DNA of 64,000 nt, taken from positions 26,660,001-26,724,000 of the forward strand of contig NC_043010.1 of NCBI RefSeq assembly GCF_006345805.1, in the 5' to 3' direction. Below are positions 421 through 62,200 of the stretch, piece by piece. A program made the position numbers and the translations under genes. This stretch comes from Octopus sinensis. Its lineage: Eukaryota. The notes beneath the pieces are model-generated. The model made no database searches, had not been told where the DNA came from, and saw only the letters and a list, made by a program, of their open reading frames with translations. Numbering within the stretch: the first letter of the stretch is position 1; each line of letters starts with the position of its first letter.

Positions 421-1081
421 ATATATATACACATGCAAACAGGCACACACACACACACACACACCCACACATGCATGCACATGCACACACGTGCACACAC
501 TCACACATGCACATGCACACACAAGCACACACTCACACACACATGCACACACATGCAATATAGGCGCTCACGCCAACACTATATAGCCACTCTCTCATTT
601 TGTGGTTTCATCCATACTGCTTATCAAACCTGAAAGCTTCTGACTCAAACCAACAAAGAGAGTCTCTAAGTGGTTGCTTGCCCTGCTAGAAATAGCGGAA
701 AAATCTTGCTCAAATTCCAGTATCTTAAACAAGAAAGGCACACTGGACAGTGTAGTCCAGATCTCCCTAAAACGATACAAAAGTTCTTCATTGCACATTT
801 GCTCAGTTAACTTTAATCAGCAGCAATAACAACAACAACAGCTTTCTTGACCATCTTCTACCACTGGTAATCTTCCACTCAGGACCAGTGGAGCTTTTCT
901 ACCAAGCCCTCTTCATCCATTCACCTTATTTAACCACACCTGTAAAACCTCTCCCCCTTTATACTTAAGATAATATTTTTTATGCTCATCTGCTTCCTTT
1001 CAGCTGGCTTGTATTTTATATTTACATGCAGAATATTTTACATAGATAAAAATATTAATATTTCTAAATCTAAAAATATTA

Positions 1082-1310
1082 ATATTTCTAAATCTCTCTA
1101 AAGGAGACTACGGCAGCAGTACTGGATATTAATAGTTATTGCCAAACTAACGTGGCAGTCCAGAGAAATTGGACAAAAGCTGCTGTTGATTAGCTCCAAG
1201 AAGCCATCGTCTCTAGCTAGCTATGTGACACACAAACCTGTGACCATTACAACCTTCAAACAGGGGAGGTCAGCAGCTTCCCCTTGCTGGTTCAACATCC
1301 ACAGAATTTT
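1082..1310 (-). mobile_element. Truncated divergent member of the retrozyme-like family at 7298-7874 and 48929-49627
   Basis: Shares ordered blocks with the other two loci: TTCTAAATCTC, GCCAA.CTAACGTGGCAGTCC, GCTG..TTAGC, CCTGTG.CC.TTA, AGGGG. No intact HHR seen. Confidence 0.55.
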
Positions 1311-7247: not shown

Positions 7248-7297
7248 TTAACGGCATCCAATATTAACCTTTCCATATTTGTATTAACTCTTTTATT

Positions 7298-7874
7298 AGA
7301 AAATTACTATTCTTAAATCTCACATCGAGAGATATTCAGCAACAGTACTTTGTAGTAAAGATTGTTTGCCAACATAACATGGCAGTCCTGGTTTAGGACG
7401 AACGTTGCTGTAATTTAGCCCCAGGAGACATTGTCTCCCGCTGGCTATGCAACACGATCTGTGTCCTTATATTTTTGAACAAGGGAATCTAGCACCCCCA
7501 CTCAGCCCAAAACAATATCTGTGTATCGGGATTTCTGGGTTATTTGCCTTCATCAGCACAGAATAATTATTCAGTTAGAGGTGGTGCTGCAAAATTCCCA
7601 TTCGAAATATATAGTTTTCAAAGTGACAACTAGTCACTGATCTAAAAATGAGAAAATTACTATTCTGTACTGAGGAAGAGAAATAACCCAGAAATCGCGT
7701 TACACATATTGTTTTGAGCTGAGTATGGGTGCTAAATTCCCTTGTTCAAAAATATAAGGACACAGATCATGTCGTATAGCCAGCTGGAGATGATGACTCC
7801 TGGGGCTAAATTACAGCAACATTCGTCCTAAACCAGGACTGCCATGTTATGTTGGCAAACAATCTTTACTACAA
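7298..7874 (-). mobile_element. Retrozyme-like non-autonomous element: ~353-bp monomer plus inverted 5' arm
   Basis: Direct repeat AGAAAATTACTATTCT at 7298 and 7651 (period 353). Inverted arms 7350-7565 and 7661-7874, each containing an HHR-like fold. Confidence 0.7.
7518..7562 (-). ncRNA. Minimal type-I hammerhead ribozyme (mirror copy at 7664-7708 on +)
   Basis: TCTGTG-CTGATGA-AGG-caaataa-CCCA-GAAA-tcccga-TA-CACAGA. Stem I is TCTGTG/CACAGA; stem II is weak; stem III is near-palindromic in the second copy (ATCGCGTT). Confidence 0.6.
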
Positions 7875-8284
7875 CTTTTTTGTTAGCAAATTTCTGTTAA
7901 AATACACTGATTTTGTTTCAATTAACCTTGAAAGTAACGAAGAATTTATCAAACTAATTCTATCATTATTAAGCTGGTGTTTGGAGCATAAATTAACATG
8001 AAAATTTGATGGAAGGTTTCATTGAAAGTATTTTAAAACAAGAAGTTTGTAGGTTTATTTGAGTAGGTTTGACCTGGGGTCAAACAATAGCAACCAAACT
8101 GATTCTCAGTACATGTGCAAAATGGGGTGATGGCCACAGCTGGAAGCATATATAGAAAATACATGAGGATTTTTTTGATCATGACTTGATTTGAGTATGC
8201 TTGACCTAACTAACACCAATGAATTAGATATGGATCTCCTCTCAGTAAATATATGAGGTGGTGGCTACAGGTTGGTCTCAAGTC

Positions 8285-16524: not shown

Positions 16525-16571
<47 letters not shown>

Positions 16572-16627
16572 TTAGTGAAGGGAAGAAATGGAGTTGAACG
16601 ACGATTCTACAAAATTCCTTTTTATTA

Positions 16628-16711
16628 TTTTCTACACATATTTCAAAGGCTGCAAATTTCCAAATTCGGATTGAATAAGGAGACCATTTTGCAGCTTTCT
16701 CTTCAGGAAAA
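16628..16711 (-). ncRNA. Type-I hammerhead ribozyme in the inverted pLTR
   Basis: Reverse complement of the HHR at 20147-20230. Confidence 0.7.
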
Positions 16712-16863
16712 ACCAGGAATTTAAATCTCCAAACAAATGCGCAGTAAGCTATTCGAACAAAACGCTCCCTAGGAGCCCATGGTAAGGCACAAAACTGTCT
16801 CTCAATTTGCGTTGGCGTCAGGGCGGGTGAAGGCCGACGGAAAAGTCCGTTGGAATACCGCAA

Positions 16864-18879
16864 ATGGAGTTGTTCGAGATCAACGCGTCCCTTAAGGACA
16901 TTCCTATACCACCAAAGGAAGCCTTCCTTAAGGAAATTGTCTGCAAAACTAATGCATTCATAAACCGGATTAGATGGCTCGTTTTCTTTCATGATAACGA
17001 GAATCTAAAACAGAACCGGGCTGCAGCATCGTCCGAATATAAGAGGCTTTTTAAGTCGATGGATACACCACCACCTAACCCAAGACTGAAGAAATTTGAG
17101 GATGACTTGTGGGACATTGTAAGGAGGATTAAATTCAGGAAGTCACCCAGGAGAAATGAACACCTCAGATACCTAGAGAAAATTACTAAGGATATTAACA
17201 GGTCAGACGGAATCCTGGTCCAATCTGACAAAACAAGGAACACGTACAAGTTACCCATTAACCAGTACTTAGAATTACTCGGAAAAGAGATCCAGAAGAA
17301 CTATAGAACAACAAATAGAAACACACTGAGAAAAGTAAACTTGGAGATTAAGAAAATAATGGTTAATTACGGAATTCAAATGAGAACACAGCCGCTTAGC
17401 CCTAAACAACCTAGATTCATCGTTAAGGACCACAAACCAAATTTCTACACCAACCCAGCGTTAAGGCTCATATGCCCTTCTAGTTCTGACATCGGCGCCA
17501 TCAGTAAGTACATTTTAGACAAATATATTCCTAGTTTAGTCAATAAGCTGAAGCTTAACCTCTGGGCGAACTCCTCGCAGGTCGTAAAGTGGTTCTCTTC
17601 TATCCCTAATAAAAACCGAACTAAGTTCATTCAGTTCGATATTGCTAATTTCTACCCCTCAATTAACCCTAGTGTACTTAATAAGGCCCTGTGGCATGCA
17701 CACAATAAGGCAGGTCTCACTAGAGAAGAAGTTGATATAATTCTAGTCGCCAGAAAATCATTTATAAAGTTTGAAAATAAGTTGTGGGTTCGTAAAGATA
17801 CTCCTAACGAGTTCGATGTGCCTATGGGTAGTTCAGATAGCGCGCAGATTGCCGATTTGGTCAGAATCTATATTCTCTACGAATTATCCGACCAGTTCCC
17901 GGATATCGGGGGCGGCCTATATCGTGATGATTGTCTGTTTTACCTACAAAACACCCCGAACAGAATCGTACAGAAAACTAAAAACAGATTAGCTAGGTTC
18001 TTTAATAGGATGGGCATGAGTATAGTTTTTGATAACGAACTTACTAAGGCTAATTTCTTAGATGTCACACTAAACCTCCATAGCGATTCTTACTGCCCTT
18101 ACCATAAGCCTTCCACTAACTTAAAGTATGTCAGTGTCTTCTCGAATCACGCTAAAACTATAACAGACAATTTGGTTAAAAATATTTCTCAAAGATTAAC
18201 TAATTTGTCTGCCAATGTCGACATTTTTAGGCAGAAAGCGGAATTTTATAATGCCGCCCTGTCTAAAGCCGGTTATAGGGAGAAGGTAGTATATATAGAT
18301 CCGGCCCTTCCGATGCCAGCATTCTGTCATCAGGATAGGGCCGGCTACAATAACATAAATAATTTAAGTAGTGATGGTAGCCTGAGGAATGTCGAAACAA
18401 GTACAGCTAGAATAAATTTAGGTAACATAAATAATTTGCGGTCCAGGGGAGGCCATAGTAAGCCAAAACCTATTATTCAACCTAGAAATACCCACCTTAA
18501 TGTCAGAGTTGACTCCCCGACCCAGTACAAAAACAGGAATAAATATATTTGGTTTGTAATTCCCTTTGGTAAACAAATAAGATCTAATCTACCTCTGCAG
18601 TTTCGCCAAGCCATTGCCAGTAATTTTCCCAGAAATTCCAGATATTACGCCACTGTTAACTCACACAAAGTTAGGATAGCCTTCTCCAACACTAAGAATC
18701 TCTCACAGATAATTTCCTCCCATAACAATAAGCTGCTAAATAAGACCCTCTCACCTTCGTTCGGAGACGCAGCTCCGTCTAATGCCAGAATAACGCGCAG
18801 TAATAATAATAATAATAATGATAATAGAACCGGCACAGAGATTAGCAATCTCCATACCAGCCATGGAGTCAATAACTAG
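16864..18879 (+). CDS. PLE reverse transcriptase (N-terminal and RT part, Naiad-like)
   Basis: Motifs KDIPIP..RIRW, DKTRN, KDHKPNF..LRLICP, FIQFDIANFYPSI, PMGSSDSAQIADLV, LYRDD, ANFLDVTL, PYHKP..YVSVFSNH. Confidence 0.9.
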   Translation: MELFEINASLKDIPIPPKEAFLKEIVCKTNAFINRIRWLVFFHDNENLKQNRAAASSEYKRLFKSMDTPPPNPRLKKFEDDLWDIVRRIKFRKSPRRNEHLRYLEKITKDINRSDGILVQSDKTRNTYKLPINQYLELLGKEIQKNYRTTNRNTLRKVNLEIKKIMVNYGIQMRTQPLSPKQPRFIVKDHKPNFYTNPALRLICPSSSDIGAISKYILDKYIPSLVNKLKLNLWANSSQVVKWFSSIPNKNRTKFIQFDIANFYPSINPSVLNKALWHAHNKAGLTREEVDIILVARKSFIKFENKLWVRKDTPNEFDVPMGSSDSAQIADLVRIYILYELSDQFPDIGGGLYRDDCLFYLQNTPNRIVQKTKNRLARFFNRMGMSIVFDNELTKANFLDVTLNLHSDSYCPYHKPSTNLKYVSVFSNHAKTITDNLVKNISQRLTNLSANVDIFRQKAEFYNAALSKAGYREKVVYIDPALPMPAFCHQDRAGYNNINNLSSDGSLRNVETSTARINLGNINNLRSRGGHSKPKPIIQPRNTHLNVRVDSPTQYKNRNKYIWFVIPFGKQIRSNLPLQFRQAIASNFPRNSRYYATVNSHKVRIAFSNTKNLSQIISSHNNKLLNKTLSPSFGDAAPSNARITRSNNNNNNDNRTGTEISNLHTSHGVNN

Positions 18880-19540
18880 CGTTAGTAATGGTAATAAGGA
18901 TGAGAGCACTGTCCGAGTCATTAATGTAGAGAGTCCCAATAACACTTTTAGCAACGGTTTTGAAAACAGTAGCATCACGGACATTAGCAATCACAGCGAT
19001 CTCAGTGCCAGGGAATATACAGGTGATATTCCATTAAATAGTATTGATAATGGGGTGTATAATGTCAAAGACACCCGCAGTTCTCACAATCATCATAGTA
19101 ATAAGAACGCCGTATTAATATCTGAAGCCAATCCCAATAGAATAAGGTTCTTATCTAGTAATTCCAAGATTAGAAATGCCATTTACCAATGCAGAGTTTA
19201 TACTGAATCAGATGTCTACTTGTATATCGGAGCGTCATCATCAAAATTGGCCATGAGAATATCGAACCACTTCACAACATTTCGCGATTTTAGAAAACAA
19301 CACGCCACGGGACTAAGTAAATTAATCTGGCGTTTGAAGAACGCGAATTCAGCATTTAAACTGGAATGGTCGATTTTATCGGTGTCTGTACCGTTTGATA
19401 GTGGCAAAAGAATCTGTAATCTCTGCAACTCTGAACTTTTTCACATTTTGTTCGCCCGAGGGCAGCTAGTTAACGCAATTTTGCAACACTCTTTCAGATG
19501 TCCCTACTGGAGGTGGCACACATTTCTTGCATACAATTGA
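18818..19540 (+). CDS. PLE linker + GIY-YIG endonuclease (frameshifted continuation of 16864-18879)
   Basis: AIYQCRV...LYIG...RISNH...TGLSKLIWRLK...CNLC.SE...LVN...CPY. Single frameshift near 18875. Confidence 0.85.
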   Translation: MIIEPAQRLAISIPAMESITSVSNGNKDESTVRVINVESPNNTFSNGFENSSITDISNHSDLSAREYTGDIPLNSIDNGVYNVKDTRSSHNHHSNKNAVLISEANPNRIRFLSSNSKIRNAIYQCRVYTESDVYLYIGASSSKLAMRISNHFTTFRDFRKQHATGLSKLIWRLKNANSAFKLEWSILSVSVPFDSGKRICNLCNSELFHILFARGQLVNAILQHSFRCPYWRWHTFLAYN

Positions 19541-20146
19541 AGCCTAAGATAATTAACACCTTGATGTCCTAAGAAAAGAAAAAAATTTTGGAAAAAATTT
19601 GGAAAAAAATTTTGAATTAAATTTGTAAAGGGAAATTACTCCCCCTTTAGCGTATGATCTGCTACTTATTTAGAAACAATATCAGGGATTATACTCCCCT
19701 TGTTTGACAAGTCATCTGTGTATAAACTGACCACAGACGAACACACAGACACAGACTTTTATCAGCCGCTTGACCTACAATATCTGCAATATATTTTCCC
19801 TCTAGCTGCTTCCTAACATACTGCCACACATACACAGGCGCACACACACATACATGTAAGTAGTTTCTCACACCCAAATAAGATAGCTTTCATTCTTAAA
19901 ACAATTCGAACATTAACATTAGTTATACAGAATATATTCACACTCTTTGGTTTTCTGGAATTCTTTCCCTACCAAATTTAACCGCAGTTTGACCTCGATT
20001 TATTCCAACGGACTTTTCCGTCGGCCTTCACCCGCCCTGACGTCAACGCACATTGAGAGACAGTTTTGTGCCTTACCATGGGCTCCTAGGGAGCGTTTTG
20101 TTTGAATAGCTTACTGCGCATTTGTTTGGAGATTTAAATTCCTGGT

Positions 20147-20230
20147 TTTTCCTGAAGAGAAAGCTGCAAAATGGTCTCCTTATTCAATCCGAATTTGGAA
20201 ATTTGCAGCCTTTGAAACATGTGTAGAAAA
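20147..20230 (+). ncRNA. Type-I hammerhead ribozyme in the 3' pLTR
   Basis: TTTTC-CTGAAGA-GAAAGCTGCAAA[loop]TTTGCAGCCTTT-GAAA-CATGTG-TA-GAAAA. Stem I TTTTC/GAAAA, ~11-bp stem II, GTA cleavage triplet. Confidence 0.8.
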
Positions 20231-20559
20231 TAATAAAAAGGAATTTTGTAGAATCGTCGTTCAACTCCATTTCTTCCCTTCACTAAATATATACAACTTC
20301 AATTATCCGCGCTAAGACACGGTTGCGACACCCCATGGTCGTAACCTCAACCGTGTTTTTTCTGTTGTGATTTTTGCTACCCAGGTATCGGTTAAATTTT
20401 GAATAATCTGTAAAAAGATAATTCATTTATCCATTTCAATAAATATATATATATATATATATATACCATTTATATATAAGAAAAAGCAAATGGAGAAATT
20501 GATATGCAGATATCAATTTATGAAAACAAATCCAATTTCGAAGAATATCAAACTAATAA

Positions 20560-22280: not shown

Positions 22281-22526
22281 TGGCAGGGGTAAAGAATACA
22301 CACATCGTCTGTTTTCGGTGAAACCCTAACCCTTAACTCTAACCCTAACCCTAAACCCTAAACACCAGGTGTGTGTATTCTTTACCTTTGCCATGTTTGT
22401 TATCAGTTCACTGATATTTTTAGTTATCAGTAATCCCATAACTTATTTACAGTATATAGTGTTGGCAGAGATAAAGAATATGCACACTGTCTGTTTTCGG
22501 CATAACCCTAACCCTAAACCCTAACA
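22281..22526. repeat. Small TIR element enclosing (TAACCC)n telomere-like repeats, partially duplicated in tandem
   Basis: TGGCAGGGGTAAAGAATACACACA / TGTGTGTATTCTTTACCTTTGCCA around AACCCT repeats. A second partial copy at about 22463-22526. Confidence 0.7.
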
Positions 22527-23558
22527 CTATAAAGCTGCATGAACTCTTGAATGACATCACTAAGAAACATGTATTTGGAAGAGTCACTGCTTACTGCCAC
22601 ACCACTGAATTTCAAAAGAGGGGCTTACCACATGCCCACCTGTTGATCAATTTGCACCCTGATTATGAATTGGATGATCCCGAAAGAATTAATCAAATTG
22701 TCTGTGCTGAGATCCCGGATCCTGTCACTGAACCCCTACTACATGAAACAGTAAAAAGGTGCATGATCTATGGGCCCTGTAGTGATCTCAACCCTGCTGC
22801 TCCCTGCAAGGAAGATAACAAGTGTTTTAAAGAATTTCCAAAGGAGTATCAACACGAGGCACAGATAAACCCAAACAGTTGCCCATTATACAGGCAACGT
22901 TGAGAGGCATTACATTGAGTTCACAACCATGAAATAGATGAATGATATGCAGTGCCCTACAATAAATATCTGAGCTGTAAGTTCAGTGCTCATATACATG
23001 TTGAGATTTGCCTCATCGTCTCCTCTGTGAACTATATTTACAAGGATATCTACAAGGAACAGGACTCCATTGATGTTGACATCAATGAAACAACTTCAAA
23101 CAATGAGATTGTGCAGGATGAAGTATGCAACCATTTAGATGCTATGCAAGTGAGTGCTCCTGAAAGTATATGGTGCCTGCTTGAGAATAAAATGCATGAT
23201 AGATCTCATTCAGTTATTTGTCCGCCTGTCCAGCTGCCACTTGTATACTTTGAAGAGGGTCAAGAGAGTCAGGCGCTTGAGTGAGCAACACAGAGAAGAA
23301 CACAACACTGACAGCTTGGCATCTTCTGAATCAAACAGAGGAAAATGCCCGGAACTTGCATCATTCTGATATTCCGTACAGTTATGTCTTCAATAAGCAG
23401 ATTACTGTATGAAAGTGCAGACAAAGAGGAGGCGATAAAGTCATCGCCAGATTGTACACCATTAGCCTGAAGGATGAGGAACAATTTTACTTGAAACTGT
23501 TGCTGTTGCATGTTGCTGGAGTTTGAATTTATGAAGATATGTAAACAGTAGATGGTGT

Positions 23559-24000
23559 GTATACATTATTTACATATGACTGATATTTGTCCTCATCTTG
23601 TTTGTTGTTAACACACAACATTTCGGCTGATATACCCTCCAGCCTTTATCAGGTGTCTTGGGGAAATTTCGAACCTGGGTTCTCATTCCTAAGGTATTTT
23701 TCAATGTTGTTGTTATTATTATTCAGGTCACTGCCCGGAATCGAACTCGGAATCTTGGGGTTAGTAGCCCGCACTCTTAACCACTGTGCCATATGCCCGT
23801 GGGCATATAATAATAATGATGATGATAATAACAACAATAACAACAACAACAACATTGAAAAATACCTTAGGAATGAGAACCCAGGTTCAAAATTTCCCCA
23901 AGACACCTGATGAAGGCTGGAGGGTATATCAACCGAAACATTGTGTTAACGACAACCAAGATGAGGACAAATATCCATCAAATGTAAATAATGTAAATAA
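23559..24000 (-). mobile_element. tRNA-headed, hammerhead-carrying SINE with inverted tail duplication (copy 1), 12-bp TSD AGTAGATGGTGT
   Basis: TSD at 23547-23558 and 24001-24012; the Helitron reading TVDGVVCNSFKEAA is restored on removal. tRNA-like head 23725-23798(-). Inverted arms about 23562-23720 and 23840-23995. Confidence 0.85.
23902..23947 (+). ncRNA. Minimal type-I hammerhead ribozyme (mirror copy 23612-23657 on -, with CTGATAA core)
   Basis: GACAC-CTGATGA-A-GGCTG-gagggtatat-CAACC-GAAA-CAT-T-GTGTT. Confidence 0.7.
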
Positions 24001-27000
24001 AGTAGATGGTGTTGTCTGCAACTCATTTAAAGAAGCTGCTCTCTTAGGAAATTTAATTCAAAATGATGAAGAATGGCACAGGGGAATAGATGAAGTATCC
24101 CTTACAGGTATGCCATTTCAGTTAAGACAATTGTCTGCTCTCATTTGCATCTTCAACACCCCAGCTAACCCTTCGCAGCTGTACCACCAGTTTGAGGAGG
24201 AGATGATTAAGGATTTCACAAGAATTAACACTCGAGAGGTGGCCATCCACAGAGCGTTAAATGATATTGGGTCAACACTGCGAGTACATGGGCTATGCTG
24301 CAGAGATTTGCATCTTCCAGTCCCAGCTGCAGCAGCCTTTCATGAAGTAGCTGTTGAAAAGAACAATGTTGAAGGATATTGAGTGGCACATTGCATCCTT
24401 CACTGAGGCTCAGCACCAGGTCTATGCACACTTTACTGCCACCATCAATGACGATGAAAGACAGAGTAGATTCTTTTTCCTCGATGTCCCTGGAGGGATG
24501 GGAAAGACCTACCAGTATAATAGATTGATAGCTTCTCTAAGAAGGTAAAACAAGTGTGTCCTTTCCTATGCTACTACAGGCATAGCTGCTGATTTGCTCA
24601 TTGATGGAAGGACTGTTTACAGTGGACTCAAGCTACCCATCCCATTGCATGATAGTTCCACCTCTCACATTAGAATCCCTTCTGAGTCATCTGAAAAATT
24701 AAAGCAGGCTCACCTTTTAATTATTGATGAAGCATCACTGTTATTATGCAATGCTCTGAGAGCCATTGATCTGCTTCTGAAGCAAGTAATGAATTCTTCC
24801 AAACCATTCGGTGGAAAAGTGCTGCTACTTGGTGAAGGCTTCAGACAAACTGCACCTATCACCCCAAGGAGATCCGATTCAGCAGTAATTGAGTCCTCAA
24901 TTAAGCAATCTCCTCTCTAGCATTTCATAACAAAACTCAGTTTGATAGAAAATATGCGCATGGCTGGACAAGATAACTTCAACAGGTGGCTTTTAGAGGT
25001 TGGAAATGGAACCCTCTCCAACAATGAAGGGCTGGAAGAAAACCTCATAAAAATTCTGCAAAACATGGTATCTACAAAGAACATTGTTAGAGAAGTTTTT
25101 GGAGAAGAATTATTACTAGACAATGATGAGGCAGTTGAAAGAGTGTCATCGACAATCATTTTGACACCTAAAAACAAAGGTTGTCTTCACATAAACATTG
25201 ACATAATGTCATTATTGCCTGGTGAGGCAACAATCTGCAGAAGCGTTGACACCATTGTTGAAGAAAATAACGAAGTTGTTATACATTAACCAGTGGAGTT
25301 TTTAAATTTGCTGACGCTTTCTGTGATGCTACCTCCATATATTGACCTTGAAGAGGCATTTGATAGTCATGTTGCCCTTCTTAATACCAGTAATTTCATA
25401 GGGTGTACTGGGTGCCTTTTTTCATGCTGCTGGCTCTAAGTGAGGTTGCTGAGTAACTTGCAAGACATGACAAGGAAAATGCCTCCCCAACAGAGTTTGG
25501 AGGTGGGGTGGTATTTGAGAGAGAGAAGGAAATAGCTTTATACCAGTTATTGGAAGACTATCATCATCATCGTCATCATCATTTAACGTTCGTTTTCCAT
25601 GCTGTCATGGTTTGGACGGTTTTTACCGGAGCTGACCAGCTGAAGAGCTGTTCAGGCTTCCTTTCTGTTTTCACTTGGTTTCTATGGCTGGCTACCCTTC
25701 CTAATGACAACCACTTTACAGAATGTACTTGGTGCTTTTATTCCGCACTAGCACAGGTGTTTTTTACATGGCATCAGCACCTACGAGTCCACAAAATAAG
25801 GGATGCTCAGCTGGAGAGGACTGCAGGAGAGGAGCCTGTATGCAAGAGCAACCATGCTGTTACTTAGCTTGACTTGATTTAAGTCTGACATAGGGTCGTG
25901 CACAGGTGTCTTGCTATAGAGGAGAAAATGGCTACCCTGCAGTATATAAGGGTAGGTGGGAGTAACTGGAAAGAAGACAATGATAGTGATATACCAGAGA
26001 CGCCACCTGAGTAGGCAAGGTAGGCAGTGCCTACCTTGAATAAAATAGATCAATAGTAACATTTTCCTTTTATGGCAAAATATGCATATAATTCAATAAA
26101 ACTGAAGGTTACTCTGATTATTATGCATAAAATACAAAATATTTTATTTTTTTGTAGATTAGGTAGGCATACTTCGCCCCTGCCTTTCAATCTCAGTATT
26201 AAAACTACATATAGTACTGCTGTAGTACACATGCTGCGTACATTCCTACAACAACATTTTCTTTATGTGCTATAAAGGCAGAAGTAAATCTGCCTCTAAC
26301 TCAGTCGTGCACCTATGTTTCGCTTATTTTGTTTAATGTTTTACTACATAAACGTCATCAACTGCCTACCCTGAGTAATTACTGACGGCACGTGCCTGTG
26401 ATATACATATGACAGGCTTCTTTCAGTTTCTGTTTACCAAATCTACTCGCTTTATTTTTGTTGGTTCAAGGCTGTTGTAAAAGACACTTGCTCAAAGTGC
26501 CATGCAGTGGGAGTGAACTGGAAAACCAGAAACCACATGGTTTGGAAGCAGGCTTCTTCCATCTCAATGCCATGTCTGTACCCCTATGTAAAATAAAATA
26601 GTCATCCCCCCACCACCACCACCACTACACTTTTTCATACTTTGATGCCATATAAGAAATGAAAAATTCTTTATCAGGGAAATTGGAACCCTGCTGTGAA
26701 TTAGAATTCAAGACATATGTGCAGGTCATCTTGGCAGCCTAACCATTCAGGTATGCCACTTGTTACCTTGGCAGATAGCTGATGATGCAGTGTGTGTGTG
26801 TGTGTGTGCATGCATACGCTTGTGTGTGTTAGTTCACCTACTCTTTTCAGGAGCCGTGTATGTCAGGTGACATTTTAAACTTTCATTGTTGATATTAAAT
26901 GATTTCAATGGAGACAATTTGTCTCTCCATGTTATTCAAAAATGACAAAGAAGAAACAGAAGTCTGAAAGAATGAAGCCTTTCTATAAGGTTTGTTGTTG

Positions 27001-48928: not shown

Positions 48929-48930
<2 letters not shown>

Positions 48931-49627
48931 CAGAAATATTAAATTTCTAAATCTCTCATAGAGATATGTACGGTGGTGGGGCGTTAGAATGGTTGTATAC
49001 TGTCAATCTAACGTGAACATGACAGTAGGGGGTTACACCACCGCTGTTTAGTCCTAGGAAGCATCAACGCTTCCTGCTGGCTTCGACACATTTTTTCCTG
49101 TGTCCTTATATACATTTACGAAGGGGAGACAAACACTCCCAGGGACACAGGAAAAAATGTGTCAATGCCAGCAGGAAGCGTTGATGCTTCCTAGGGCTAA
49201 ACAGTGGTGGTGTAACCCCCTACTGTCACGTTCATGTTAGATTGACAGTATACAACCATTCTATCGCCCCACCACCATACATATCTCTATGAGAGATTTA
49301 GAAATTTAATATTTCTGATTTTGGTAATCAGTGAATAAACTTCACTGAAAATTAGATATATACATTTGCGAATCGGGACAGATATCAACAGCTGGCGGGC
49401 GTCTGCTACTCTAGACCGATGAAGGACTATGATCCTGAAACATGCGTGTCTCTAGATGCAGGCCTGGCTGCTGGGGGTGTTTGTCTCCCCTTTGTAAATG
49501 TATATAAGGACACAGGAAAGAATGGGTCGAAGCCAGCAGGAAGCGTCGATGCTTCCTAGGGCTAAACAGCGGTGGTGTAACCCCCTACTGTCACGTTCAC
49601 ATTAGATTGACAGTATACAACCATTCT
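48929..49627 (+). mobile_element. Retrozyme-like element: 365-bp monomer in partial tandem plus inverted 5' arm
   Basis: GGACACAGG at 49143 and 49508 (period 365). Inverted arms 48929-49105 and 49143-49319. HHR at 49410-49456. Flanked by (TA)n. Confidence 0.8.
49410..49456 (+). ncRNA. Type-I hammerhead ribozyme (CCGATGA core variant)
   Basis: TCTAGA-CCGATGA-AGGA-ctatga-TCCT-GAAA-CATGCGTG-TC-TCTAGA. Confidence 0.75.
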
Positions 49628-49642
49628 ATATATATATATATA

Positions 49643-59539: not shown

Positions 59540-62200
59540 ATATAATATATATTATAATATATATATAATATATATATATATTATATATATTATATATAAT
59601 ATATATATATATATTATATATATATATATATATATTACACACATACATGTGTTACCGTGTGTGTGTGTCTGTTGATTCTTCAAGATGCTTAAATTACAGA
59701 ACTAATATATTTGTTTACAATGTAAAAAATATTTCTTTTTCTCAAAAACTCTAAATGCAACAAGTCATAAGCATATATTTATGAATCTAGAACTGACTCT
59801 TATCCATATTGCACCTTCTCTTAATTACGTTTTCATATTTTTCAAGCCAGTAATATATTATTTATTTGAACAATATTCACATACTGTGTGTACTCTCAAA
59901 ATATTAGGGTACCATATTTTCTAGCAAATCCCAAACAGAATAAACAGCCAAAAAAGGTAAGTCAAGAACAAGAAAACTTTGGAGGACCAAAAATTCCATG
60001 TAAAATGCATCAACATTTGAAAACATAATGACAATGTTTGAATGTTTACACAATATGTTATGTTGACTTGTATGCTGGAGAATACAGTATTAGATTTATT
60101 TGTATTGGAATGGTTAAATATACTCCTAGTGAGAAATTCTTCAAATTATTATCTTTAACTCTTAATTAAATACACCTTTGTTGGTTACGGTTTGGGATCT
60201 CAAAGAAATTTGAAGTGTATGTCCTTTCATATATGTATCTGTTAAAGAGTCAGCTTGTGCATGTGTCTGGGGAAGGAGAACTAAAGCCACTGTAGTTGTT
60301 GATATGATTGTGTAGCCCAGGGTCAGCACTGATAAAGAAGACCCAGTTGAATGACCAGATGTGATCCACTGGTCTGCAAAGGCCTTATTTCTCTGTTGAA
60401 TTAAGGACTATACTACACATTCTGGGAAGTTGATTGCCATTTTCGCACATTCTTTAATGTAGGTATTCTTAAAGTGGGTGGTACTGTGTCTTGGTGGGGG
60501 ACAGTGAACAGTTTTTTTATGGGTCTTGGAGACAAAGGGGATGATAGGGGGTAGCAATTGATTCCTCTGCACCATTTGTTTTGTAGTCTTTGTTTCCTAT
60601 TTAAACTTTAAAAACTATTTAACCCTTTAACATTTAAACTGGCCAAATCCTGTCCAAATATTCAAACTGTTTTATCCTCCAACTGGCCAGATCAGGCTTC
60701 TCACATATACCCTACAATGTCATTCTAAAGATATACAATCACATCTTTGAAATCTTGATGCTGAAAAATTGAAAAATTGAAAACAAAGTAAATTAAGGCA
60801 GTGCTCTAGCATCGCCGAAGTCAAATGAATGAAACAAGTAAAAGAATACACACACACACACACACACACCACTTATGCTTGTAATCAATAAAGTATAGTT
60901 TAAAAGACATTCTTGAGATTTGTAGGTATTTCCATACACTCAATTAAGACAGTCACTGCACCTGTACTTTAGATAGCGTACTGACCTGTGAATGCATATA
61001 TATGGATACGTACATATGATATATTTAATTTTGCAGAATCATAGCAAGGGGGTGTTGAGAAAGTATTAGTAATAGAATGTGAAGGTGGATAACAGATAAA
61101 AGTGTTTAAGAAGCAGTAATCTATTATATCATTTTATTTCCACAAAGTTGCAAGATGGAGTAACTAAACACTCAGACATAGCTGTTGTTACTATTGTTGT
61201 TGTTGTTGTTGTTGTTTAGCTTCAGATCAACCCTGATCAAGTAGATACATAATCAAATGAATTCAAATTGCGACCAACTCATCATTTTAGGGGATGTCCA
61301 TTCTTTGCTGATTTCTGTAACCTAGAGCCAGTGCTCTTATTTGATCTATCAGTCCAGTGGGGTAGCTTTGACTGAGGAGACACAAAATAAGATCGAAACA
61401 CCACTGTCTCAAAGTCCCTTCACATATGCTATAAATTCATATACTCTAATGGGAGGAAATGTTCTCTGATGACGAAAAATCAACAGTGCTTAGATATTTA
61501 TGTTTGAAACTGCCAGAATGAATTGAGATTGGAGAGATGAGTTATTGTTTGGATTCTCACCATTCCACGTGCAACAGATGAATTCTTATCTGTTTGGCAG
61601 ACATCACCCATCAGCTGATAACATTTATTTGGGAATTTCCATAAACAAAAGACTGCTCTCATTAAATTCATCAGTCCAATGGAATATCTTTGATTGAAGA
61701 GATATACAACAAAGTAGAAATGCTGTGGTGTCTCACAGTTTCCTTACTCTGGTGAATTGTGTTTGTTATTATCATTTATCAGCTAAAGGAAGGTGGTGTT
61801 CTCTGATGATGAAAAACAACAATCAGATATTCACGTTCAAATCTGCCCAAATGTATTAACAATAAATGGTTATGTTATTGTTTGAACTCTTACTGTTCTG
61901 CATGTACCTCATGAATTGTTAACAATATTTATTGTTTTTCTCTTTCACAAAAGAAAAGAAAAAAGATTGGGGTACTCTTTTACTTGTTTCAGTCATTTGA
62001 CTGCGGCCATGCTGGAGCACTGCCTTTAGTCGAGCAAATTGACCCCAGGACTTATTCTTTGTAAGCCTAGTACTTATCCCATCAGTCTCTTTTGCCAAAC
62101 TGCTAAGCTATGGTGATATAAACACACCACCATCAGTTGTCAAGCGATGTTGGGGGGACAAACACACACACATACATACATATATATATATATATGTGTG

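What the first reader, a model, noticed from the sequence alone, without database searches (positions are those of the whole stretch)
7298..7874. Second monomer (~353 bp) and a third relic define a diverged family with conserved structure
Seen: 1082-1310, 7310-7500 and 48945-49140 differ substantially but keep the same ordered blocks: CT(T)AAATCTC, G(C/T)CAA..TAAC(G/A)TG, GCTG...TTAG, CTGTG.CC.TA, AGGG. They also keep a hairpin whose sequence changes while pairing persists (AGGAAGC-ATCAAC-GCTTCCT vs GGAGACA-T-TGTCTCC). The HHRs differ in stems I-III. At 7661-7666 the switch to the inverted arm occurs at a TATTCT microhomology. Inference: a conserved structured RNA domain besides the ribozyme, possibly an RT-recognition or promoter element.
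Basis: partly seen in the sequence, partly recalled or inferred. Interest (0 to 1): 0.7.

Follow-up and report, generated by a model that had tools for sequence, protein, structure and literature searches.

The report
Retrozyme helix spans Penelope copying start
The three look-alike stretches are copies of three related families of small, protein-free jumping elements that carry a predicted self-cutting RNA motif, and all share a short predicted RNA helix, kept paired while its letters changed, that straddles one of their two fixed insertion ends and likely tells a borrowed Penelope-type reverse transcriptase where to start copying.

Summary
Observation confirmed. The loci at 1072, 7300 and 48929 are copies of three high-copy families (A, B, C; 55-68% identical, monomers 353-365 nt); a fourth (D) lies elsewhere in the genome. 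Each monomer has a type I hammerhead fold. Copies end at two fixed sites about 54 nt apart (137 of 162 arms), sit head-to-head (55 of 55) and have 8-14 bp target duplications (22 of 26): the Penelope 'tail' signature. So these are non-autonomous Penelope-type retrozymes, a known kind; the scan noted such two-ended insertions before on other DNA of this genome. New here: an 8-bp helix that bridges the first end and pairs into the tail, with 6 of 8 pairs compensatory across four families (0 of 2000 shuffles). One clade of intact Penelope elements has the same tail length and helix geometry without sequence likeness; three other sampled groups do not. Likely role: positioning the reverse transcriptase (inferred). 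No partner was found by homology; cleavage, circles and function are untested. Promoter reading unsupported.

The parts
7286..7299 (.). target-site duplication, left copy (14 bp)
   Evidence: 12 of 14 identical to 7873-7886
7300..7666 (-). family B long arm: one 353-nt monomer plus about 14 nt, 3' end at site S2 (7300)
7300..7351 (-). tail between sites S1 and S2 (52 nt here; 53 in the family map)
   Evidence: loose read ends at 7349-7354 and 7299-7314
7337..7344 (-). 3' strand of the S1-spanning helix, inside the tail, starting 7 nt after S1
7403..7410 (-). 5' strand of the S1-spanning helix
   Evidence: 3 of 5 pairs with changes on both sides
7518..7562 (-). type I hammerhead fold, predicted cut after 7524; palindrome of stem III broken in this copy
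   Evidence: not scored by Rfam models
7661..7666 (.). TATTCT microhomology at the head-to-head junction
   Evidence: sequence; overlap in 21 of 36 such junctions
7661..7872 (+). family B inverted short arm, 3' end at S1 (no tail); decayed hammerhead at 7664-7708
   Evidence: (I12)
7873..7886 (.). target-site duplication, right copy
1072..1307 (-). family A copy, 5'-truncated just after the hammerhead, ends at S2; helix strands 1178-1185 and 1111-1118
1047..1071 (-). second copy of the last 24 nt of the family A end
   Evidence: 1 of 107 loci
48929..49142 (-). family C arm ending at S2 in a TA repeat; helix strands 49036-49043 and 48971-48978
49143..49629 (+). family C arm of 1.3 monomers ending at S1 in a TA repeat; hammerhead 49410-49456; helix strands 49205-49212 and 49270-49277

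Best explanation
The stretch is one head-to-head insertion of a non-coding, hammerhead-bearing 353-nt element of a four-family group that is likely copied by a borrowed Penelope-type reverse transcriptase, and a predicted 8-bp RNA helix that bridges its first fixed end likely positions the enzyme. Shown: homology of the families, two fixed 3' ends about 54 nt apart, head-to-head arms mostly with one end of each kind, 8-14 bp target duplications, AT-rich or TA-repeat targets, and compensatory pairing of the helix. Inferred: tandem or read-through transcripts give a monomer or multimer RNA (linear or circular); the element's endonuclease partner cuts both strands 8-14 bp apart; each nicked strand primes copying from inside the RNA, one at S2 and one at S1; the two cDNAs join at short microhomologies such as TATTCT. 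The helix closes a 55-59 nt loop with S1 lying 4-8 nt before its 3' strand, so the tail is needed as the helix partner even when copying starts at S1. The likeliest supplier of the enzyme is the 'N' clade of intact Penelope elements in this genome, which has the same measurements (about even odds).
For: Ends: 65 arms at S1 and 72 at S2 of 162, about 17 expected in those bins, 5' ends 7 of 162. Orientation: 55 of 55 adjacent opposite arms head-to-head, 37 of 55 S1+S2. Target duplications: 22 of 26 non-microsatellite insertions against 3 of 250 mismatched flank pairs. These match the two RT starts and tail of PAc (PMC11167929) and the inverted pLTR and tail of PLEs (PMC8557442, PMC3846280). Helix: found blind by RNAalifold; 6 of 8 pairs compensatory, 91-93% of cells paired against 28-51% for slid controls of the whole structures; 0 of 60 and 0 of 2000 column shuffles reach it; family D, found afterwards, pairs 8 of 8 with a fourth sequence. 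Intact family N1: two ends 54 nt apart, one of each in 14 of 14 loci with both arms complete, an 8-bp helix enclosing 52-54 nt with probability over 0.5 in 25 of 31 tail-bearing copies, its 3' strand 7 nt after S1 and 39 nt before S2. Tails of Neptune-like (about 34 nt), Poseidon-like (about 33) and Hydra-like (about 150) groups differ.
Against: No autonomous element with sequence likeness to A-D was found: model R1 and a profile gave no recurrent hit at the terminal repeats of any sampled group; the link to clade N is geometry only. In N2 the helix exceeds 0.5 in only 4 of 15 (older) copies and in N3 a different, longer helix across S1 is preferred. Single-copy folding gives the helix in 24 of 38 A-E copies and in the minimum-energy fold of only 1 of 3 window copies. 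Only four independent lineages carry the covariation, nearly all changes are transitions, and several fit CpG decay (the window's C arm has a C-G to T-A change at two CpGs). S2 counts for A and B are inflated because the queries ended at S2, and one locus gives 7 of B's S1 ends. Rfam hammerhead models do not score these folds; the pair at the base of stem II is broken in 19 of 41 copies. RNA reads show both directions about equally and no pile of ends at the cut site.
Confidence: 0.68

Rival explanations
1. Same element class, but the helix serves RNA stability, circle compaction or correct hammerhead folding, and its position across S1 is incidental.
For: Several other hairpins are conserved too; retrozyme circles are reported as abundant structured RNAs (PMC7229834, abstract and passages); no functional data here.
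Against: The helix lies 120-200 nt from the hammerhead and keeps a fixed spacing to S1 (4-8 nt) and S2 (35-44 nt) in A-D and in unrelated N1 and N2; PAc needs RNA beyond its starts and begins in a stem loop (PMC11167929).
Confidence: 0.17
2. The conserved blocks are an internal promoter (RNA polymerase III type or TATA-like).
For: TAGCCAGCTGG in B and D resembles a tRNA A box and GTTCGA in A and B a B box (resemblance recalled, not tested by a call); a different Penelope family here does carry a tRNA-like head.
Against: The GTTCGA word is absent in C and D and lies upstream of the A-box-like word; the A-box-like word is explained as a paired strand; ARAGORN finds 0 genes; reads are not strand-biased and show no start.
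Confidence: 0.06
3. The covariation is a by-product of descent and CpG decay in an ancestral GC-rich inverted repeat, with no selection on RNA structure.
For: Four lineages only; transitions dominate; TG/CA swaps at helix positions 4-5 and 7-8 fit CpG decay; C vs B is not significant pairwise.
Against: Every fixed change is matched on the other strand, including one not at a CpG; 0 of 2000 column shuffles, which keep family patterns, give 4 or more such pairs; D was an out-of-sample pass.
Confidence: 0.06
4. A DNA-mobilised foldback or MITE-like element whose palindromic shape is its terminal inverted repeat.
For: Insertions are palindromic with target duplications.
Against: The arms are unequal, 5' ends are scattered, the two outer ends differ by the tail, many copies have one arm or tandem monomers, duplication length varies, and a hammerhead fold with covarying stems is present.
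Confidence: 0.03

Closest known systems
Animal non-LTR retrozymes (Cervera and de la Pena 2020, PMC7229834, passages read; Li, Clavereau and Pollet 2026, bioRxiv 10.64898/2026.07.22.740005, parts 1-3 of 5 read)
   Same: Non-coding 350-365 nt monomers (mussel ones are 350-390), type I hammerhead fold in each unit, tandem and solo copies, larger target duplications, proposed dependence on Penelope elements.
   Different: Most copies here are head-to-head two-armed insertions with two fixed 3' ends; a covarying non-ribozyme helix is shared by four families; cleavage and circles are not shown here; no homologous pLTR was found, unlike 24 of 57 Xenopus families matched to Repbase entries.
Penelope-like element PAc of Anolis (PMC11167929, parts 1-2 of 4 read) and pLTR/tail structure of EN+ PLEs (PMC8557442, PMC3846280, passages read)
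   Same: Two internal RT start sites, optional tail at one end, inverted 5' copy, AT-rich targets, hammerhead upstream of the starts, microhomology junctions.
   Different: No open reading frame; tail 48-56 nt rather than 30-40; starts 175 and 230 nt after the cut site; the stem across the first start is supported by covariation here, whereas the text read for PAc mentions an AC-rich stem loop without it (its supplementary figure could not be seen).
Hammerheads of metazoan PLEs with palindromic stem III and the U3-A8 core variant (PMC4209133, passages read)
   Same: Palindromic stem III/loop 3 in all four families (dimer-type), U3-A8 in family A.
   Different: Long stem I and intact stem II rather than minimal motifs; family C has C at core position 4; family B often lacks the pair at the base of stem II.

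Membership tests
non-LTR retrozyme | non-coding monomer of about 170-400 nt, in tandem or solo copies | tested here: met
   monomers 361, 353, 364 nt; tandem arms up to 3.5 units; no ORF of 120 aa in the three loci
non-LTR retrozyme | type I hammerhead motif in each unit | tested here: met
   core words and covarying stems I-III; but Rfam models give no hit and the window's B copies are decayed
non-LTR retrozyme | self-cleavage of the RNA | not testable with these tools
   needs in vitro transcription of a dimer
non-LTR retrozyme | accumulation as monomer or circular RNA | tested here: inconclusive
   reads in three RNA-seq runs of a related species label, both directions, some going back 353 nt, no sharp ends; tandem read-through gives the same picture
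non-LTR retrozyme | no LTR, PBS or PPT; target duplications longer than 4 bp | tested here: met
   22 of 26 duplications, mostly 8-14 bp; no terminal direct repeats other than the monomer itself
PLE-mobilised element | two 3' ends separated by an optional tail | tested here: met
   137 of 162 arms; 6 S1-type ends in D; loose read ends at both sites
PLE-mobilised element | inverted 5'-truncated copy head-to-head | tested here: met
   55 of 55 adjacent opposite arms
PLE-mobilised element | sequence homology to the pLTR of an autonomous PLE | tested here: not met
   none among Hydra-like, two Neptune-like, three N-clade and one Poseidon-like family sampled; sampling incomplete
autonomous PLE | ORF with RT and GIY-YIG endonuclease | tested here: not met
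   monomers are non-coding; upstream of the hammerhead lies the previous unit
tRNA-derived SINE | tRNA-like head with A and B boxes | tested here: not met
   box-like words not conserved in all four families

The most novel reading that the evidence does not exclude
Penelope reverse transcriptases of clade N choose their RNA by shape and distance, not sequence: an 8-bp clamp formed with the tail closes a 55-nt loop and acts as a ruler that sets two start sites, one per enzyme subunit and per nicked DNA strand. Four retrozyme families have kept this clamp with four different sequences to hijack the enzyme. It would explain what the Penelope tail is for and give a structural analogue of the template-boundary helix of telomerase RNA in the sister group of telomerase (analogy recalled, not tested).
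Probability: 0.3. Interest if true: 0.78.

Novelty: new variant of a known kind. Interest (0 to 1): 0.5.

Why it matters
How Penelope-type enzymes, the closest retroelement relatives of telomerase, pick their RNA and why they start at two internal sites is open; an in vitro system exists (PMC11167929). A 170-nt non-coding domain with natural compensatory variants gives a ready set of mutants and a minimal cis element that could direct such an enzyme to any cargo RNA. It also gives a way to pair non-autonomous families with their mobilisers by geometry when sequence likeness is gone. The element class itself is known and the copy at 7300 is a decayed passenger.

Tried and rejected
The intact-looking Penelope element in the window (16565-20450, Hydra-like DKT motif) as partner: no profile match, tail about 150 nt. 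Neptune-like families: tail about 34 nt, no match. Poseidon-like family: followed up because an RT remnant abuts a D copy in L175, but 29 other copies continue into their own endonuclease and tRNA-headed repeat, tail about 33 nt; read as a D insertion or one-off chimera. Family hits near PLE loci (L113, L153, L163, L189, L223, L241, L249, L257, L276, L308, L320, L325) were at unrelated positions and are read as separate insertions. Rfam: only palindrome-driven miRNA hits below cut-off; no hammerhead hit for A, B, C. A coding origin of the core (ORF from the hammerhead ATG as in PAc) was checked by eye: B stops after 31 codons, frames are not kept. No RNA holder on record was listed by the index: no evidence either way. 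Family C was nearly absent from the two RNA runs laid but present in contigs of two other organism labels. A genome-wide search with the RNA model was not available, so further families and partners may be missed. Literature searches found no description of this helix or of these octopus families; supplementary figures of PMC11167929 (RNA fold, Fig. S2C) and bioRxiv supplements could not be seen, and Repbase/Dfam were not searchable.

Full report
1. What is there. The region 7300-7872 is one insertion with two arms pointing outward. The long arm (7666 to 7300, minus strand) is a 353-nt monomer plus about 14 nt; the short arm (7661 to 7872, plus strand) repeats part of it. The arms share TATTCT at 7661-7666, and the insertion is framed by a 14-bp duplication with two mismatches. 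The genome is an octopus by homology: a protein of one of its Penelope families is 98% identical to an NCBI Octopus entry.

2. Three families, then a fourth. Each window locus retrieves its own family: 3068 (B), 2603 (C) and 2588 (A) first-look candidates, of which 40 each were scored and 30 fetched; these are neither copy numbers nor a random sample. Monomers are 361 (A), 353 (B) and 364 nt (C). I aligned 14 of 14 A, 14 of 28 B and 13 of 13 C copies that span the hammerhead-to-end region: they align throughout. A profile of that alignment found a fourth family, D (1659 candidates), and single more distant copies (L163, L189). Over the core, identity is 83-92% within and 50-68% between families.

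3. How they insert. With two duplicate loci dropped (L013, L018) and arms at locus edges skipped, 65 of 162 arms end at site S1 (173-178 nt after the predicted cut) and 72 at site S2 (226-234 nt); about 17 would fall in these bins by chance, and 7 of the 162 5' ends do. S2 counts for A and B are biased by the queries, S1 counts are not, though one locus gives 7 of them. All 55 adjacent opposite arms are head-to-head and 37 pair an S1 end with an S2 end. Of 36 such insertions scored, 10 lie in microsatellites; 22 of the other 26 have a target duplication scoring 9 or more, against 3 of 250 mismatched flank pairs; 21 of 36 junctions show overlap of the arms. Six D arms end at the equivalent S1. 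RNA-seq reads of a related species label show foreign flanks at 7349-7354 and 7299-7314, the same two ends. This is the signature described for Penelope-like elements: optional tail and inverted truncated copy (PMC8557442 passages; PMC3846280 passages), explained in vitro as two internal RT starts with nicking and extension of both target strands (PMC11167929, parts 1-2 of 4).

4. The ribozyme. Stem I has 5 of 6 and stem II 4 of 4 pairs with changes on both sides. Stem III is palindromic in each family, the dimer-type layout, and A has the U3-A8 core variant, both described in PMC4209133 (passages). Against: Rfam does not score these folds, the base of stem II is unpaired in 19 of 41 copies, and both window B copies have changes that break the palindrome. 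Activity is untested.

5. The structured domain. RNAalifold, unguided, predicted a long-range helix. Its strands read CGGCAGCA/TGCTGCCG (A), CAGCAACA/TGTTGCTG (B), CGGTGGTG/CACCACCG (C) and, in D found later, CAGTAGCA/TGCTACTG. On 38 copies chosen for completeness (10 A, 10 B, 9 C, 8 D, 1 other) 6 of 8 pairs change on both sides and 93% of cells pair; slid controls of the whole structure give 37-51%. One measure, pairs with a two-sided change, did not beat its shuffle there (257 of 500), and that shuffle ignores relatedness. The helix encloses 55-59 nt; S1 lies 4-8 nt before its 3' strand, so that strand is in the tail (in the one A copy scored there a mutation hid it). Limits: four lineages; transitions that partly fit CpG decay; probability over 0.5 in 24 of 38 single copies.

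6. Who moves them. I sampled intact or decayed Penelope families by protein searches. None has a terminal repeat like A-D. But family N1 (ORFs of about 900 aa; C-terminal GIY-YIG with a zinc-finger-like linker; 'Nematis-like' is recalled, not tested) has two ends 54 nt apart, one of each in 14 of 14 loci with both arms complete (L211, cut by the locus edge, left out), and an 8-bp helix enclosing 52-54 nt in 25 of 31 tail-bearing copies, with the 3' strand 7 nt after S1 and 39 nt before S2, as in B. N2 has the same strands and a 52-nt tail but folds so in only 4 of 15 copies; N3 (55% identical to N1) has a 57-nt tail and prefers another helix across S1. Neptune-like, Poseidon-like and Hydra-like tails are about 34, 33 and 150 nt. 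So geometry points to clade N, without proof; an Octopus vulgaris annotation lists 31 recently active Penelope-like families (PMC13282606 passages), more than I sampled.

7. Expression. In about 6% of each of three RNA-seq runs, 1889, 1597 and 1440 reads lay on the B monomer at 85% likeness, in both directions about equally, mostly running on into other sequence, with no pile of ends at the cut site. This fits passive inclusion in host transcripts and neither shows nor excludes circles.

8. Known versus new. The class is known: animal non-LTR retrozymes (PMC7229834 passages), argued to be non-autonomous PLE derivatives (bioRxiv 10.64898/2026.07.22.740005, parts 1-3 of 5). Earlier notes of this scan, seen after my reading was set, describe two-ended head-to-head retrozyme insertions elsewhere in this genome; look-ups by sequence and by helix words returned nothing. 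Six literature searches showed no account of a covarying helix across the RT start; unseen supplements may bear on this. It works like a PLE terminal repeat; it meets the tested retrozyme features, with cleavage and circles untested; it is not an autonomous PLE or a tRNA SINE.

9. Verdict. Real, well supported as a Penelope-type retrozyme group (about 0.9); helix real (about 0.85); role in positioning the RT likely (about 0.6-0.7); clade N as mobiliser about even. Interest 0.5.

Noticed in passing
window 16565-20450 (+): Penelope element with Hydra-clade marks (DKT motif), frameshifted near 18800, inverted tail-less repeat at its 5' side and a tail of about 150 nt; family has 11209 first-look candidates and ORFs of about 900 aa; my pattern found no canonical hammerhead in it.
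   Followed up: partly
window 61330-61920 (+): A separate decayed tandem unit of about 320-340 nt with a type I hammerhead at 61366-61414 (Rfam 26.3 bits, below cut-off) and a second CTGATGA-GAAA word; unrelated to families A-D by blastn and model R1.
   Followed up: no
window 1047-1095: The last 24 nt of the family A end are written twice, as if copying restarted at S2; seen in 1 of 107 loci. Short repeats at S1 also occur in N1 (L215, L243).
   Followed up: partly
L003:2070-3192: Seven tandem units of about 165 nt, each running from 13-21 nt after the predicted cut to S1: repeated restarts at S1 on a cut linear RNA, or later tandem amplification.
   Followed up: no
L175:1500-2543 (-): A Poseidon-like RT fragment runs straight into a family D copy that ends in a TA repeat; the rest of the host element is not within 1.5 kb downstream.
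   Followed up: partly
L305-L334, downstream of the ORF: The Poseidon-like family carries a tRNA-like stretch before its hammerhead, as an earlier scan note reported.
   Followed up: partly
L237-L244, L279-L296: N-clade proteins have an insertion of about 100 aa between RT motifs A and B, where canonical C-terminal-endonuclease PLEs are said to lack one (PMC8557442 passages); their hammerhead cores look degenerate.
   Followed up: no
window 7351 (reads): One host locus ending at S1 supplies 200-309 reads per run in the related species, so a B copy sits in an abundant transcript there.
   Followed up: no
window 22475-25289 (+): Broken ORFs that read like a Helitron Rep/helicase (name recalled, not tested).
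   Followed up: no
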